From: Podarcis gaigeae
Lineage: Eukaryota
Strand: one strand, 5' to 3'
NCBI GenBank assembly: GCA_964106915.2
Contig: OZ066915.1
Length of the DNA: 64,000 nucleotides
Position 1 is the first letter of the stretch; every line of letters begins with the position of its first letter. Below are positions 1,953-63,560 of the stretch, one piece after another. The translations under genes were made by a program, and so were the position numbers. Below the pieces are notes generated by a model. The model did not search any database, was not told where the DNA came from, and saw only the letters and a program-made list of their open reading frames with translations.

Positions 1953-2448
1953 TACCAACCATGATTTGTGGTGTATTGCCAGGTCAAAAATTATGAAACT
2001 GATACCACAATATGGACTTCAAACTGGTTTTAGACGATATATCGCCCAGCCCTAGTGGGCCACAAGGAATTGGGACAGTGTGATGATGTCATGTCATTAC
2101 AAATAGAGGAAGGGGAAGATTGTCCTGGAGTTACCTTTCCTGCAGCACCCTGTTACACTTTTCAGACTTGGGACCCACTTTTGAGTCCTCTCCTAACATG
2201 GGAGCCACTTTTGCATTATTATTACAGGGGTGTCCTCCCCCCCCCCAACTTACATGTGATCAACTGGTGTGCGACTGCGTATACGCTTGGTGCTGGGAAT
2301 TAATTAAATTCAAACCAGGAAACGGCAAGAAAGAGTTGGGGAGTTCTCATGGTTCATGAGAAGACCCTTATAGGAGCCTGAAGAGGACATCAGTGAGGGC
2401 AGAGGAAACCCCCAAAAGGCCAGAGGTACAGTGGAGTTTTGTTTAGGC

Positions 2449-2583
2449 CAGGCTTCCTCAATCTCGGCCCTCCAGATATTTTTGGCCTACAACTCCCATG
2501 ATCCCTAGCTAGTAGGACCAGTGGTCAGGGATGATGGAATTGTAGTCTCCAAACATCTGGAGGGCCGAGGTTGAGGAAGCCTG
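2449..2583. mobile_element. Palindromic hAT-type MITE
   Basis: TIRs CAGGCTTCCTCAA / TTGAGGAAGCCTG; 8-bp TSD GTTTAGGC at 2441-2448 and, displaced by the LTR insertion, at 3155-3162. Confidence 0.85.
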
Positions 2584-2584
2584 G

Positions 2585-3150
2585 TGTGATGGCCTGGGAA
2601 TCCGATTCAGAGGCTGAATCAGAGGAATCCCAGCCTGCACAGGAGTCCCCGCCTCCAGGGCCGGCTGAACTGGGGCAGGGCCTTGATTCTGAAGCGCCTG
2701 CACTTGTGCCGGATCCTCAGGAGCAGGCACCAGGTGAATCCACTCTGGCTCCGGAGGTGGTTGAGGACTCAGTGTCTACAGGTGAGTCTCCCCCTGGGTC
2801 CAGTAACCCTCCAGCCTCTCCTGAGCTGCAGAGGCTCAGGGCAGAGAGGCGGAGGGAACTGGTTTCTCCCAGGAGGAGTGCTCGCCTTAAGGCCAGGAGA
2901 GTCGGGTCTCCTGGGGGCCGGGACCGCCCCTGGCCTCAGAGAAGATAAAGGCCAGTCAGCCCGGTCCCAGGTTGCGGGAGCAACGTCGTTGAAGAGCTGT
3001 TTCGGCCAGCACCCAGTCAGGTTCCTCCAGAGTTCCTGTCCTTGCCCGGCTCCTCACTTTGGACCCCGCTTCGCCCGTGGAGGACTGTCTGCCGACCTCG
3101 ACTCAGGTCCTGGACCTCACCCCACGGAAACCTCCCCCGGGACCAGCACA
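2585..3150 (+). mobile_element. Solo LTR of an LTR retrotransposon (Gypsy/BEL-like)
   Basis: Starts TGTGATGG and ends CCAGCACA (7/8 inverted termini, TG...CA); perfect 5-bp TSD CCTGG at 2580-2584 and 3151-3155; TATA-like GATAAA at ~2944. Confidence 0.85.
2589..2948 (+). CDS. LTR-internal ORF, 119 aa, acidic/Pro-rich N-terminus and Arg-rich C-terminus with SPRRSARL (hypothetical)
   Basis: ATG in strong Kozak context (gtgATGG) just inside the LTR start; open to TAA at 2946-2948. No expression evidence. Confidence 0.35.
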   Translation: MAWESDSEAESEESQPAQESPPPGPAELGQGLDSEAPALVPDPQEQAPGESTLAPEVVEDSVSTGESPPGSSNPPASPELQRLRAERRRELVSPRRSARLKARRVGSPGGRDRPWPQRR

Positions 3151-3400
3151 CCTGGTTTAGGCTGCTGTGCTTCCCCACCTAATAGCTGGCGTGTGGGGTA
3201 GTGCAGCAGCAATGCATATTCCAACCTCCTGCTGGCCCCAGAGCTTCAATTCTAGTTGTGGATATTTTTGGCTACAGTATTTTTTCGTATGTAGTGAAGA
3301 GAGAGCAGAAGTGTGGGCATTTGGAGGATGCTTCCCACTTACGCAGGCCATTTCCTCCTCCTCCTCCTCCTCATTTAATGTCAGTGTCCTCGGTACCACT

Positions 3401-3541: not shown

Positions 3542-3616
3542 AGTGTGCTGCTCTTGCCCTCATTTTGAAATGATATCTATCCATATTCTGAAAATAATTT
3601 TTAAAATACTATACTA

Positions 3617-3971
3617 AAGGTAAAACTAAAGGGACCCCTGACCATAGGTCCAGTCGTGACCGACTCTGGGGTTGCAGTGCTCATCTTGCTTTATTGGCCG
3701 AGGGAGCCAAAGTACAGCTTCCAGGTCATGGGGCCAGCATGACTAAGCCGCTTCTGGCAAACCAGAGCAGCGCACGGATATGCCATTTACCTTCCTGCCG
3801 GAGCACTACCTATTTATCTACTTGCACTTTGACATGCTTTCGAACTGCTAGGTTGGCAGGAGCAGGGACTGAGCAATGGGAGCTCACCCTGTCGTGGGGA
3901 TTCGAACCGCCAACCTTCTGATCGGCAAGCCCTAGGCTCTGTGGTTTAGCCCACAGCACCACCCACATCCC
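3617..3971 (-). mobile_element. Sauria SINE (Squam1), full length
   Basis: tRNA-like head with B-box GGTTCGAATCC on minus strand, ACCTTT-type tail; 12-bp TSD AATACTATACTA at 3605-3616 and 3974-3985. Confidence 0.9.
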
Positions 3972-12219: not shown

Positions 12220-12930
12220 TAGGACTGGGCAATATTTCATCCAAAACTGTTTTGAAGTCCATATTGTGATATCAGCTTCATAGTTTTTGACCTTGCGATA
12301 TAACATGAGCCGTTATGTATGTTAGGGCTGGGCAATGTATTGTCCAAAACCAGTTTGAATTCCATATCGTGATATCAGCTTCATAATATTTGACCTGGTG
12401 ATATATTGTAAATCGTGATTGTGTGTGTGTGTGTATGCTTTGCAAAAATCACGATGCAGGAAAAAATGTGAAGCCAGCCAATGCCTCTATGTAGCTCCAT
12501 CCTTATTACAGGCATTGTGATTATATTAGTATATTGCAATGTTTAAAAGGTAAAGGGACCCCTGACCATTAGGTCCAGTCATGACCGACTCTGGGGTTGC
12601 GGTGCTCATCTCACTTTATTGGCCGAGGGAGCCGGCGTACAGCTTCCGGGTCATGGGGCCAGCATGACTAAGCCACTTCTGGCGAACCAGAGCAGCATAC
12701 AGAAACACCGTTTACCTTCCCGCTGGAGCGTTACCTATTTATCTACTTGCACTTCGTGCTTTCAAACTGCTAGGTTGGCAGGAACAGGGACCGAGCAACG
12801 GGAGCTCACCCCGTCACGGGGATTCAAACCGCCGACCTTCTGATCGGCAAGTCCTAGGCCACCCGCATCCCATTGTGATGTTTAGCTGGCATATATCACA
12901 ATGTTGAAAACCAGGTATCACCCAGCCCTA
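12220..12930 (-). mobile_element. hAT-like element (same family as 679-2054) with duplicated end and an inserted Sauria SINE
   Basis: TAGG(A/G)CTGGGCAAT at 12220 and 12323; ends CCCAGCCCTA at 12930. Confidence 0.65.
12546..12871 (-). mobile_element. Sauria SINE
   Basis: Near-identical to 3617-3971; degenerate TSD ATTG(CA/TG)ATGTTTA. Confidence 0.9.
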
Positions 12931-17400: not shown

Positions 17401-17999
17401 ATATATCCTTTAAATAGCAGGACAAAAATAGAAAAGCATGCTGAGAGGCTATTCTGCTACCACAGTCGAGTGACTAAAGCAGGCCTCCTCAGTTTGAGAC
17501 CCCCGGCAACAGAAAAGTCCTGCTTGATCAGACCCAAAGACCTCCCTTTCATTTTATTTGTTAACGAAAAAATAACAAGGTGCTCATATAATCTGTGCAG
17601 TACAACATATAAGGCTATTTAAAAACAACAACCCTAAGAACATCAATCAATACTGATTGGTTTAAAATTAATTAGAAAATCATTATTATTATTATTATCA
17701 TGTATTCAATTTATGCCACCCTTTCTCAAAAGATCCCAGGGCAGTGCACAACATTAAAAACACATTACAGAACATCAGTAATAAAAACATAGTAAAAAGC
17801 ATACAGACAGAAGGACAGATAGTAAAATAATTAGTGACACTCCCCTGCCCCACACTTTCATAGGCCACAGATGATTTAACGGTCATAGACCTGGGGAAAG
17901 AGGAATGTTTTTGCCTGGCGCCTAAAGACATATCATGATGGCACCAGACAGGCCTCTCTGGGGAGAGCATGCTGCAAAGGCATGCAAGACAGGGATAGT

Positions 18000-18343
18000 A
18001 AAGGTAAAGGGACCTCTGACCATTAGGTCCAGTTGTGGCCGACTCTGGGGTTGCGGCGCTCATCTTGCTTTATTGGCCGAGGGAGCCGGCATACAGCTTC
18101 TGAGTCATGTGGCCAGCATGATTAAGCTGCTTCTGGCGAACCAGAGCAGCGCATGGAAACGCCGTTTACCTTCCCGCTGAAGTGGTACCTACTTATCTAC
18201 TTGCACTTTGACGTGCTTTTCTGCTAGGTTGGCAGGAGCAGGGACCAAGCAACGGGCGCTCACCCCATCACGGGGATTCGAACCGCCGACCTTCTGATCG
18301 GCAAGTCCTAGGCTCTGTGGTTTAACCCACAGCACCACCCGCG
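18000..18343 (-). mobile_element. Sauria SINE
   Basis: Similar to 3617-3971. Confidence 0.9.
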
Positions 18344-22989: not shown

Positions 22990-24270
22990 ATATGCACAAA
23001 CGCAGCGCGCGAGAGATGGCTGCCTCCTTTCTTTCTTCCTCCCTCCGTCCCTTTCCTCCTCCTCTTCTCCATAGCTCCCTGCTAGAGCCACGCTGCTTTT
23101 GGAAGACTACGCAGCACGCGGCCTGCAGGGGGTACCTCGCTGCTCTTTCGCTGGGCGACGCTCTAGCCAGCGCCCCCGGCTCGTTTCCAACGGCCCCCTC
23201 TCTATGGTCGGCATTGCAACGTCCGCTGGGGAAAAGACGCGCTGGCCGGGGCGTCTCTGTCGTTCCAGCGCGGAAGAGGTCTGCACGGGGGAGGAGAGGG
23301 GAGGGCTCTCATCGTTTCCGGGTCAAGGCGGGGTTGAAATCGCCCCGCTCTCCAGCTCCCCCTCCCAGACCCGCCGAGGCCGCCGCCGCAAGAGCAGCTG
23401 CCGCAGCCCCTTCCCGCTGCCCTTGCCCTCCTCCCGCCGCCGCCATCCCGCCCGCCCGCCCCGGCTCTCTCCTCCTCCCCTCCCCCCGTCCCGCTCCCTC
23501 CGCCCGCCCCGGAGACCCGCGCACCACCCGCCCTCCCTCCTCCCGCTCCCCCCCGTCCCGTCCCCTTCCCCGCCCCAGCGAGGGAGCGAACGAACGCGTG
23601 AGCGGCCGGGCCTAGCCACCCCGCCAGGTAAGGGCTTCCCACCGCCCCTCGGAAAGTACTCGTCTTTTTTTCTCCCCCTCCTCCCCCCCCCTTTCCGAAT
23701 CCCCGGCCTCGAGTAGCTGCGCTCTTCCGCCAACCCTGCGCCTCGAGCCGGGCCGGGTCGCTACGCGAGTTCGAGGATGCGCTTGCGGCCTACTGCGGCC
23801 GGGTCCCACCCGAGTGCGTGTGAAGCGCCTGGAGTCGGTGGGTGGGGGGAGGGGTGGCGCTGTTGCTGCCATTTGCGTCTCGGGGAGGAGCGGGCCCCGC
23901 GTGGAACGCGGCTGGGGGGGGGCCGCAGTGGACTGGATGGCTGCGTGCGTGTGTATGTATGTAGTTGGGGGGGCGCTCTTGCTGCGTCACATCGAGCGGG
24001 ATGTGGGCCCAGGCCTCTTGCGCGCGAGGGAGAGTGATGGCGGGGGGAGGAGGAGAGGGGCGGGGATTTTTCTTTCAGCCGGGGGGGGGGGAGGAGGAGG
24101 AGGTTGACGCTAAGGCGGCCGGCTGTGAGTAAGAGAATGGAGGGAGGCCTGGCTCGCGGGCCGGCGGCGGCAGCAGCAGCGGGCGGGCGGATCTCATGGC
24201 TGGAGCGGGAGGGGTGGGGAAGAGAAAACAGGACAGTTGCGTCGTGTTATTTAAAAACGCGTCCCGCCAG
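22990..24270. promoter_or_regulatory. CpG island / PCBP2 promoter
   Basis: Very high GC and CpG density, multiple GC boxes; surrounds exon 1. Confidence 0.9.
23360..23627 (+). other. PCBP2: PCBP2 non-coding exon 1 (C-rich 5'UTR; start approximate)
   Basis: Consensus donor CAG|GTAAGG at 23627/23628; C-rich leader resembles the recalled mammalian PCBP2 5'UTR. Confidence 0.8.
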
Positions 24271-54671: not shown

Positions 54672-55035
54672 AAAGGTAAAGGTACCCCTGCCCGTACGGG
54701 CCAGTCTTGTCCAACTCTAGGGTTGTGCGCCCATCTCACTCTACAGGCCGGGGGCCAGCGCTGGCCAGAGACACTTCCGGGTCATGTGGCCAGCGTGACG
54801 AAGCTGCTCTGGCGAGCCGGCAGCAGCGCAGCACACGGAAACGCCGTTTACGTTCCCGCTAGAAAGCGGTACCTATTTATCTACTTGCACTTTAGGGGTG
54901 CTTTCGAACTGCTAGGTGGGCAGGAGCTGGGACTGTTTGACGGGAGCTCACCCCGCTGCGGGGATTCGAACCGCCGACCATGCGATCGGCAAGCCCTAGG
55001 CGCTGAGGATTTACCCACAGCGCCACCCGCGTCCC
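54672..55035 (-). mobile_element. Sauria SINE, distinct CpG-rich subfamily
   Basis: Full-length head GGGACGCGGGTGGCGCTGTGGG on minus strand; TSD-like TATATTT..AAAAAGG on both sides. Confidence 0.9.
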
Positions 55036-55428
55036 TATATTTAAAAAGGGTGTGTCTTTAAATCTAGAGAATTTTTCTTGCCTTCCTTCCCACCCCTAAC
55101 ATTTCAAAATAACATTTCTTATCTTGTAGAGCTGCCAAGTACATGCTATTAACAATCAGAGCTCCATATCTGGAGGGGCAAGCTAGAAAGTGAAGTCCAA
55201 GCAGATTTGCCAAACCAAGGCTTGAGCATACATGGGAAACCACTGTTAAGATCTTGTGAAGGGAACTGAAATGACTATCTGGGCTCTGCCTTAGAAAGGA
55301 TCAAACCCTTACAATTCAGGGAAAATTTAAACACGCCCTGACCTGCCATAATTCAGTCTATTTGGACTAAAAGGGGCAAGAAGCTACGATACATGTGAAT
55401 TTTCAGAATTGCTGGTTTTTCATGGAGT

Positions 55429-62003: not shown

Positions 62004-62346
62004 GACGCGGGTGGCGCTGTGGGTTAAACCACAGAGCCTAGGGCTTGCCGATCAGAAGGTCGGCGGTTCGAATCCCTGCGACGGGGTGATCGCCCGTTGC
62101 TCAGTCCCTGCTCCTGCCCACCTAGCAGTTCGAAAGCACATCAAAGTGCAAGTAGATAAATAGGTACCGCTCTGGCAGGAAGGTAACCGGCGTTTCCATG
62201 CGCTGCTCTGGTTCGCCAGAAGTGGCTTAGTCATGCTGGCCACATGACCCGGAAGCTGTACGCCAGCTCCCTCGGCCAGTAAAGCAAGATGAGCGCCGCA
62301 ACCCCAGAGTTGGCCACAACTGGACCTAATGGCCAGGGGTCCCTTT
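62004..62346 (+). mobile_element. Sauria SINE
   Basis: GACGCGGGTGGCGCTGTGGG head, GGTTCGAATCC B-box; flanking AACCTCGA repeats. Confidence 0.9.
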
Positions 62347-62885
62347 AACCTCGAGAGGGCAGCAGGATCCTTTAAAGCAAATATTCCACACCCAGAAAAA
62401 TGAAAAAGCTAATCTTGCATGTGATCCACATTTAGGTTCCTTCTGCTAGGCACAGGGAAGGGCAAAGGGTTTGTCAGGGAGAGGGGTTGAAATCTGGCAA
62501 TCTCAGTTCTCTTTTTGGTTTGGGAATTTCCCCCCAAAAGGCGGCCCTCCTACGCAGCTTGAAATTTAATAATGTAAAAATAAAATAGTGAGCCAATCCA
62601 CTCACGAGGCTGAGTTCTGTCCGCTTCCACGTTTGCTGATGGTGCAGTCTTAGCACATTAACAACAGACCAGAAGCCAACAAAACCAGTAGGTGCAGGAA
62701 CAGGCAATGTTGGGCTGCAGGTAACCTACATTTTGGGCTTTCCTGCACCAGTAAAAGTGACCTCGCAGCCTTCTCAAAGCTCCTGCATTGCCCAGGTTCA
62801 CCACCAGGGGGAAACCCACAGGCAAAACAAAATCCCGGCAGCTGAAATGGATGCCAGCACCCTGCCATTCTCGCACTGCACCCAC

Positions 62886-63313: not shown

Positions 63314-63560
63314 AAGGTAAAGGTAAAGGGACCCCTGACCATTAGGTCCAGTTGTGGCCGACTCTGGGGTTGCAGTGCTCATCTTGCTTTACTGGCCGAG
63401 GGAGCCAGCGTACAGCTTCAGGGTCATGTGGCCAGCATGACTAAGCCGCTTCTGGCGAACCAGAGCAGCGCATGGAAACGCTGTTTACCTTCCCACCGGA
63501 GCGGTACCTATTTATCTACTTGCACTTTGACGTGCTTTTGAACTGCTAGGTTGGCAGGAG
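63314..63560 (-). mobile_element. 5'-truncated Sauria SINE
   Basis: Family core; flanking TACTGAAGGTAA duplication. Confidence 0.85.

What the first reader, a model, noticed from the sequence alone, without database searches (positions are those of the whole stretch)
2585..3150. Solo LTR encoding an intact 119-aa protein with an HMGN-like RRSARL motif
Seen: an element bounded by TG...CA with a perfect 5-bp TSD carries an ORF that starts at its fifth base in strong Kozak context, fills the region upstream of a TATA-like box and stops at that box. The protein is polarised: ~75 acidic/Pro/Ser residues, a predicted helical ELQRLRAERRRE, then SPRRSARLKARR. Established: RRSARL is the core of the HMGN nucleosome-binding domain (RRSARLSA), which docks on the H2A-H2B acidic patch; some retroviruses encode accessory proteins in U3 (MMTV Sag; HIV Nef overlaps U3). 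Inference: this LTR family may encode a U3-borne chromatin-binding accessory protein, expressed from the 3' LTR of full elements, with a possible CDK site (SP) next to the arginine anchor. I know of no description of this in squamates. GC-rich DNA can give ORFs this long by chance, so this is a hypothesis.
Basis: partly seen in the sequence, partly recalled or inferred. Interest (0 to 1): 0.72.

Follow-up and report, generated by a model that had tools for sequence, protein, structure and literature searches.

The report
Transposon integrase tail hidden in LTR
The reading frame in this lizard transposon remnant is not a separate gene but the tail end of the transposon's integrase protein, and the tail carries a short motif that likely lets the integrase grip nucleosomes the way vertebrate HMGN proteins do (binding not yet tested).

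Summary
In detail: a 566-bp solo LTR with a perfect 5-bp TSD and a 119-codon ORF containing RRSARLKA. The accessory-gene reading does not. The LTR belongs to a high-copy, env-less Ty3/Gypsy chromovirus of Tf1/Sushi type. In elements with an internal region, the Pol frame runs integrase > SH3 > chromodomain > polypurine tract > this ORF without a stop (16 of 30 junctions; also a 1240-aa Podarcis muralis Pol record). The ATG overlaps the LTR attachment site and lies upstream of the inferred transcription start. The tail looks constrained: no shared frameshift in codons 1-110 of 171 copies, many shared indels after the stop, net dN/dS about 0.5 (interval reaches 1), and no shared residue change in the motif. 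An old, DNA-unrelated LTR-like family has the same acidic-linker, basic-stretch, RSARL layout. Against: 49 of 100 junctions are frameshifted, and the 'CDK-site' serine is alanine in 88 of 171 copies. Best reading: a chromodomain integrase with a second, HMGN-like nucleosome tether encoded in U3. The fusion is shown; binding is untested. Plant CRM elements are a precedent for targeting tails inside the LTR. Ten literature searches found no such motif in a retrotransposon integrase.

The parts
2580..2584 (+). left 5-bp target-site duplication
   Evidence: identical to 3151-3155
2585..3150 (+). solo LTR of a Ty3/Gypsy chromovirus (Tf1/Sushi type), subfamily A
   Evidence: TG..CA ends; 94-96% identical to the 39 other scored copies among 2,674 candidates; the same LTR family flanks gag-pol elements
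2589..2948 (+). 119-codon frame: the part of the Pol/integrase C-terminal tail that lies in U3; orphaned in this solo LTR
   Evidence: continuous with integrase-SH3-chromodomain in L031 (478 aa), in 16 of 30 junction loci and in UniRef A0A670IJD3
2589..2819 (+). acidic Pro/Ser-rich linker, aa 1-77, predicted disordered; the ATG overlaps the attachment motif
   Evidence: net charge -17; low pLDDT and no secondary structure; net dN/dS 0.41-0.78
2820..2855 (+). predicted short helix, aa 78-89
   Evidence: AlphaFold2 model of chromodomain plus tail, low confidence
2871..2894 (+). HMGN-like motif RRSARLKA, aa 95-102; predicted acidic-patch arginine anchor
   Evidence: compared with HMGN RRSARLSA, Dsup PPRRSSRLT, Dot5 RRSARIAT
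2944..2949 (+). TATA-like box that contains the stop codon
2974..2984 (+). inferred start of R: stretch complementary to the element's non-tRNA primer-binding site (self-priming)
   Evidence: 7-8 contiguous matches and duplexes of -13.6 to -16.9 kcal/mol in 3 of 3 full-length copies tested; 30 nt below the TATA-like box
3151..3155 (+). right 5-bp target-site duplication

Best explanation
This is a solo LTR of a Ty3/Gypsy chromovirus whose Pol reading frame runs through the polypurine tract into the 3' LTR, so the 119-codon ORF is the C-terminal tail of the integrase, and its RRSARLKA motif likely docks the integration complex on the H2A-H2B acidic patch as a second tether beside the chromodomain. 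Shown: the element class, the in-frame fusion, the family-wide ORF and a frame-preserving history. Inferred: the transcript starts about 30 nt below the TATA-like box, so U3 is transcribed only as the 3' LTR copy, and the tail is translated as part of Pol. Predicted, untested: a disordered acidic linker holds the motif away from the chromodomain; the chromodomain (aromatic-cage residues present) reads methylated H3 while the motif's arginines bind the acidic patch. The window copy is a recombination remnant that has lost the integrase and would not make the fusion.
For: Fusion: L031 has one 478-aa frame with integrase core, SH3_Tf2-1 and Chromo followed by the LTR ORF. In 16 of 30 junction loci the chromodomain frame reaches the ATG with no stop, 7 of them open for all 669 codons up to the locus edge. 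UniRef A0A670IJD3 (P. muralis, 1240 aa) carries protease, RT, RNase H, integrase and Chromo domains and ends in this tail with RRSARL. Class: gag, zinc knuckle, protease, RT, RNase H, integrase, SH3, Chromo; three full-length copies of 5.7-5.8 kb with 5-bp TSDs; self-priming-type PBS, a Tf1/Sushi trait (PMC6317226 passages). Constraint: in 171 distinct LTR copies the only indel shared by 3 or more copies in codons 1-110 is +30 nt, while 24 of 31 rare indels shift the frame, and 8 shared indel events follow codon 110. Net divergence is 0.05-0.10 in the ORF against 0.16-0.25 at LTR nt 401-566. Tail synonymous rate equals that of integrase (0.165 vs 0.129-0.160) while tail pN/pS is 0.49 (CI 0.26-0.97); for helix plus motif it is 0.13 (CI 0-0.40), like the chromodomain's 0.11 (deepest pair). 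The shifted forward frames give 1.09-2.15 in the two deeper comparisons. Aa 94-102 show 0 of 9 positions with a shared second residue against 20 of 77 in the linker. A 78%-identical subfamily keeps the frame and the motif with different codons (L251). An old LTR-like family with no blastn likeness to this U3 has an acidic frame without shared stops (D+E 24%), a basic stretch and R11/13, S11/13, R7/13, L11/13 at motif positions 2, 3, 5, 6. An unnamed chromodomain protein (P0117) has the same junction, an acidic linker and a C-terminal RRSARL; Podosphaera chromoviruses carry RSSARL after the chromodomain. The RRSAR core is what binds the patch in HMGN2/5, and variants work in Dsup, Dot5 and APC3.
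Against: No binding evidence of any kind was obtained. Of the first 100 of 156 junctions, 49 are frameshifted at a G run just before the polypurine tract (23 at -1, 23 at +1, 3 other). Tail dN/dS is weak: with transitions weighted (kappa 4) it is 0.54-0.83 with intervals spanning 1, and within-subfamily ratios are 0.6-1.0. The helix-plus-motif ratio rests on about 3 synonymous and 1 non-synonymous differences, and is 1.13-1.15 in two shallower pairs. Linker versus aa 78-102: Fisher p = 0.09. In the A-B pair a shifted frame gave the same 0.63 as the ORF frame. Part of the copy sample was picked on the motif, as were L251 and the seed of the old family. The motif is not general: RRSxR in 0 of 77 tails and 3 of 88 (shuffled mean 0.56, p = 0.019; that query profile itself held the motif). 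In the old family the first arginine is R in only 5 of 13 rows, and no internal region or TSD was found.
Confidence: 0.55

Rival explanations
1. The tail is a real part of integrase, but its basic end is a general nuclear-localisation or DNA-binding patch; the likeness to HMGN is incidental.
For: Other chromovirus tails end in different basic strings: KRGRP in Rhineura (P0038), RRRGRPRR in several unlabelled records, and short Arg-rich ends in the set. A second family in this genome has an acidic-then-KRKR frame in its LTR with no RRSAR.
Against: The exact spacing R-R-S-A-R-L, not just charge, is kept across subfamilies, in the old family and in P0117. Neighbouring basic residues (aa 103-104) vary freely.
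Confidence: 0.25
2. The tail is neutral read-through: Pol lacks a stop at the polypurine tract, and GC-rich U3 happens to be open and is conserved for promoter reasons.
For: 49 of 100 junctions are out of frame. Tail dN/dS intervals reach 1. Read-through into the LTR with unrelated tails is common in vertebrate chromoviruses. A second family has a roughly 110-codon, ATG-less open frame in its LTR although Pol stops at the tract in most copies seen. An open frame this long arises in 2.4% of shuffles.
Against: Synonymous sites in the tail change as fast as in integrase, so it is not DNA-level conservation. No shared frameshift in codons 1-110 against 24 rare ones. Slips are symmetric around the in-frame length and unclustered on the tree (24 changes, shuffled mean 24.1), as expected of new errors in dead copies, although a hypermutable run also erases the signal. 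Motif and layout recur in a DNA-unrelated family.
Confidence: 0.13
3. One reading: the ORF is also, or instead, made as a free 119-aa accessory protein from its own ATG.
For: The ATG has good context and is kept in 98% of 171 copies. In -1-slipped copies the Pol stop overlaps this ATG, which could allow re-initiation (inference). RNA reads of a related organism cover U3 in both directions, with many loose ends at the LTR start, as from host transcripts running through solo LTRs.
Against: The ATG lies inside the attachment motif, which is conserved for integration, and the same V-M junction appears in chromoviruses with unrelated tails. It is upstream of the inferred transcription start. The frame is continuous with Pol in the modal copy. 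No joint (splice) was listed in the three RNA runs laid, at low internal depth.
Confidence: 0.07

Closest known systems
Tf1/Sushi-group chromoviruses (Sushi-ichi, Amn-san; Ty3/Gypsy, Metaviridae)
   Same: Domain order gag-PR-RT-RH-IN-SH3-chromodomain, no env, 5-bp TSD, non-tRNA self-priming PBS, TGTnAnR LTR start. A GGGAAAC heptamer lies at the gag-pol overlap in 3 of 5 copies (its role as the Sushi/PEG10 slip site is recalled).
   Different: Pol continues about 115-130 codons into U3 with an acidic linker and an HMGN-like motif; most related post-chromodomain tails seen are short (median 29 aa in the set).
Plant CRM group A centromeric chromoviruses (CR motif)
   Same: [quoted passage not shown]
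   Different: The CR motif replaces the chromodomain, while here the tail is added behind an intact one. No centromere targeting was tested here; copies are spread over many contigs.
HMGN nucleosome-binding motif and HMGN-like motifs (HMGN2/5, tardigrade Dsup, yeast Dot5, APC3 loop)
   Same: RRSAR core identical to HMGN; 7 of 8 positions of RRSARLSA; preceding Pro as in Dsup; set in a disordered region.
   Different: Part of a transposon integrase, not a free chromatin protein; Lys instead of Ser at position 7; the acidic region lies before the motif; no Pfam HMGN hit at E up to 10; binding untested.
Foamy virus Gag chromatin-binding sequence (acidic-patch tether of a retroviral integration complex)
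   Same: Proposed job: tethering an integration complex to nucleosomes; loss of Gag chromatin binding redistributes integration (PMC9040877 passage).
   Different: Carried on Gag, not integrase, in a true retrovirus; no sequence likeness was tested.
U3-encoded retroviral accessory genes (MMTV Sag, HIV Nef; recalled)
   Same: An ORF occupies U3 of the 3' LTR.
   Different: Those are separate proteins from subgenomic RNAs of env-bearing retroviruses (recalled). This ORF is fused to Pol in an env-less retrotransposon.

Membership tests
Ty3/Gypsy chromovirus, Tf1/Sushi group | gag, PR, RT, RNase H, integrase in Gypsy order, no env | tested here: met
   Pfam on L032 frames; Pol enters the LTR about 150 nt after the chromodomain
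Ty3/Gypsy chromovirus, Tf1/Sushi group | chromodomain at the integrase C-terminus with aromatic-cage residues | tested here: met
   PF00385 E 9e-13; Y, W, Y aligned to HP1 cage positions; fold pLDDT about 90
Ty3/Gypsy chromovirus, Tf1/Sushi group | self-priming primer-binding site | tested here: met
   PBS complementary to the LTR about 30 nt below the TATA-like box in 3 of 3 copies; trait per PMC6317226. Predicted pairing, not an assay.
Ty3/Gypsy chromovirus, Tf1/Sushi group | RT phylogeny within the clade | not tested
   no named reference RT sequences were fetched
Retroviral U3 accessory gene (Sag/Nef type) | ORF separate from Pol | tested here: not met
   continuous with Pol
Retroviral U3 accessory gene (Sag/Nef type) | own subgenomic or spliced RNA | tested here: inconclusive
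   no joints in 3 RNA runs, internal depth only 0-5
HMGN protein family | free chromatin protein matching the HMG14/17 profile | tested here: not met
   no such Pfam hit at E up to 10; the ORF is a Pol tail
HMGN-like acidic-patch motif | RRSAR/RRSSR core with three arginines in a disordered region | tested here: met
   aa 95-99; kept in 95-100% of 171 copies per position, sample partly picked on the motif; core defined in PMC12487698
HMGN-like acidic-patch motif | binding to nucleosomes that depends on the acidic patch and the arginines | not testable with these tools
CRM group A chromovirus | CR motif in place of a chromodomain | tested here: not met
   a canonical chromodomain is present

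The most novel reading that the evidence does not exclude
Some chromovirus integrases carry a two-handed chromatin grip, a methyl-lysine-reading chromodomain plus an HMGN-type acidic-patch anchor encoded inside the LTR. The anchor has been kept across lizard LTR families whose DNA no longer aligns and recurs in distant chromoviruses, which would make it the first acidic-patch anchor on a retrotransposon integrase and leave more than a thousand ATG-bearing copies of a nucleosome-binding peptide scattered through the genome.
Probability: 0.4. Interest if true: 0.78.

Novelty: new variant of a known kind. Interest (0 to 1): 0.56.

Why it matters
How vertebrate chromoviruses find and hold their target chromatin is poorly known beyond the chromodomain. 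A short, well-defined HMGN-like motif at the end of the integrase gives a cheap peptide-level test. If it binds, it extends the acidic-patch tethering known from foamy virus Gag to retrotransposon integrases and adds to the short list of non-HMGN proteins with the motif. It also warns annotators: an ATG-led ORF at the start of a solo Gypsy LTR can be an orphaned Pol tail, and such tails end up in gene models (P0001, P0007, P0039).

Tried and rejected
Pfam on the 119-aa ORF: nothing over cut-off. ESM Atlas: chromodomain clusters only for P0002; no usable hit for the tail. Metagenome scan for P0117's DNA: 421 pattern matches, none confirmed, so its organism and LTR position are unknown. Earlier findings: none by sequence or words. 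RNA search: no RNA holder listed. Three raw RNA runs of a related organism gave 137-232 reads each, mostly on U3, 85-99% alike, with thin one-direction cover of the internal region; too thin to show a Pol transcript through the junction in this species. A second read-laying on other species' DNA did not complete, so no cross-species substitution table exists. Complex prediction of the tail with H2A-H2B was not available (no verdict); PMC12487698 also reports that AlphaFold 3 models HMGN2-nucleosome poorly. The solo/junction census had a faulty end pattern and was discarded; TSD counts come. The degenerate pattern excluded the family's common codons by my choice of letters, so its 16 hits are not a census; 3 were fetched. 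No TSD, 3' end or internal region was found for the old family. L228 had no LTR end match and is left out of the 3 full-length copies. The CDK-site idea was rejected. ERV origin was rejected.

Full report
Observation. The element spans 2585-3150, begins TG, ends CA and has an identical 5-bp duplication on both sides. A 119-codon ORF runs 2589-2948, acidic in aa 1-77 and basic around RRSARL at aa 95-100, and stops inside a TATA-like box. An open frame this long arises in 480 of 20,000 shuffles and the hexamer in 26 of 200,000. The genome holds a large family: 2,674 candidates, 40 scored at 94-100%, and 1,284 exact matches to the motif-coding 25-mer. Of the 30 closest copies 27 keep the frame open and 23 keep the exact motif. 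The host is probably a lacertid lizard, inferred from 82-89% protein identity to Podarcis records.

What the ORF is. Three of those 30 copies had a polypurine tract directly upstream, and the only protein relative of the ORF was a Podarcis record in which it follows a chromodomain. The fetched regions showed gag with a zinc knuckle, protease, RT, RNase H, integrase, SH3 and chromodomain. In L031 one 478-aa frame runs from the integrase core through the chromodomain and the tract into the LTR ORF and ends at its stop. In 30 junction loci found by DNA, the chromodomain frame reaches the ATG without a stop in 16. A 1240-aa P. muralis Pol ends in the same tail. Three of four fetched full-length regions could be delimited: 5.7-5.8 kb, 5-bp TSDs, LTR pairs 93.5-99.1% identical. 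Their primer-binding site pairs with the LTR about 30 nt below the TATA-like box, the self-priming arrangement of Tf1/Sushi chromoviruses (PMC6317226, passages). This places the inferred transcription start near window 2974, so the whole ORF lies in U3. The ATG at base 5 overlaps the attachment motif (Sushi TGTYANR, PMC3601003, passages), and the same V-M junction is seen in Rhineura, Salvator, Naja and Anolis chromoviruses with other tails. The window copy is thus an orphaned Pol tail.

Is the tail selected? I compared real copies pairwise and subtracted within-subfamily diversity. Between subfamilies A, B and C the ORF differs by 0.05-0.10 net and LTR nt 401-566 by 0.16-0.25. In 171 distinct copies no frameshifting indel in codons 1-110 is shared by three or more copies, a +30-nt insertion is shared, 24 of 31 rare indels shift the frame, and 8 shared events follow codon 110. 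In the deepest pair (28 vs 18 copies) pN/pS is 0.08 for integrase, 0.11 for the chromodomain, 0.49 (0.26-0.97) for the tail and 0.13 (0-0.40) for helix plus motif, with equal synonymous rates. The signal is modest. With transitions weighted the tail gives 0.54-0.83 with intervals spanning 1; the motif figure rests on about four differences and is above 1 in two shallower pairs; linker against aa 78-102 gives p = 0.09; and the sample is partly picked on the motif. The serine of the proposed CDK site is alanine in 88 of 171 copies.

The junction is unstable. Of 156 pattern matches, the first 100 listed are 51 in frame, 23 at -1, 23 at +1 and 3 other, through length changes of a G run. On a tree of 74 junction copies the frame state is unclustered (24 changes, shuffled mean 24.1) and differs even among near-identical copies. 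This fits fresh slips or assembly error around an in-frame mode, but it cannot prove that the tail is required.

Is the motif more than one family's accident? A 78%-identical subfamily keeps the frame and RRSARLKA with other codons (L251). A codon-degenerate search (16 hits, 3 fetched) also led to an old family with no blastn likeness to this U3. Its copies start TGTnnTGG, have an acidic frame (D+E 24%) with no shared stop, then a basic stretch and the motif, with R, S, R and L at positions 2, 3, 5 and 6 in 11, 11, 7 and 11 of 13 rows; position 1 is R in 5, with stop and Gln codons that fit CpG decay and Gly in 3. Its internal region and TSD were not found. Outside lizards, the unnamed P0117 has chromodomain, the same junction, an acidic linker and a terminal RRSARL, and three Podosphaera-type records have RSSARL just after the chromodomain. 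The motif is not general: RRSxR occurs in 3 of 88 tails (0.56 expected; the query held the motif) and 0 of 77.

Mechanism. Cryo-EM shows that the RRSAR core of HMGN2 and HMGN5, and PPRRSSRLT of Dsup, bind the acidic patch through arginine anchors (PMC12487698, parts 1-2 of 5 read). Variants work in yeast Dot5 (PMC12871379, passages) and APC3 (PMC11910654, passages). The tail has the full core in a predicted disordered setting behind a well-folded chromodomain with cage residues. I infer a second chromatin tether on the integrase, akin in job to foamy virus Gag (PMC9040877, passages). Binding was not tested. I put the fusion at about 95% and the acidic-patch function, given the fusion, at a little under 60%. 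The rivals are a general basic NLS or DNA-binding patch (0.25), neutral read-through (0.13) and a free accessory protein (0.07).

Expression. No indexed RNA holder was listed. Three raw RNA runs of a related organism gave 137-232 reads, mostly on U3 in both directions with loose ends at the LTR start, and depth 0-5 on the internal region, with no joints. This says little either way.

Novelty. Pol extending into the 3' LTR with a targeting domain is known in plant CRM elements (PMC3059260 and PMC3605345, passages). I found no report of an HMGN-like motif in a retrotransposon integrase: RRSARL plus retrotransposon gave 5 papers, the 4 listed on other subjects; acidic patch, retrotransposon, integrase, arginine anchor gave 0; chromovirus plus acidic patch gave 1 review, seen as a listing only; none of the listed papers held the motif term. 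Searches were read as listings apart from the papers named. Verdict: a new variant of a known kind, interest 0.56.

Noticed in passing
window 2441-2584 and 3155-3162: The LTR sits in the right edge of an older MITE-like element: 49-nt inverted arms (2448-2496 / 2536-2584, 86%) and an 8-bp direct repeat at 2441-2448 and 3155-3162, hAT-like by length (the label is recalled).
   Followed up: partly
L253-L282 (seed G000:C8:58058979-58059739): Old LTR-like family (28 candidates, 69-88% identity to the seed) with a sharp TGTnnTGG start, an acidic frame, a basic stretch and a decayed RSARL(R/K)A about 325 nt in; no internal region or TSD found.
   Followed up: partly
L168, L230-L249: A second chromovirus family: Pol stops at the polypurine tract in most copies seen, yet the LTR holds an ATG-less open frame of about 110 codons, acidic then KRKR-rich.
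   Followed up: partly
G000 contig C32 (29.5 Mb): 22 of the 30 best junction loci lie on this small contig, many nearly identical; possibly a repeat-rich sex chromosome or segmental duplications (inference).
   Followed up: no
P0038, P0078, P0133 and others: Several chromovirus tails end in RGRP strings like AT-hooks (label recalled), suggesting that these integrases swap short basic chromatin anchors.
   Followed up: no
P0007, P0039, P0263 (Podarcis muralis records): Gene models join the 5' LTR's ATG-led tail to gag, probably a prediction artefact.
   Followed up: no
window 3611-3971, 12546-12859, 17998-18340, 54672-55039, 62009-62347, 63314-63560: Six or more copies of another repeat of about 350 bp in the window, SINE-like by size; also a GC-rich stretch at 23001-24000 (70% GC).
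   Followed up: no
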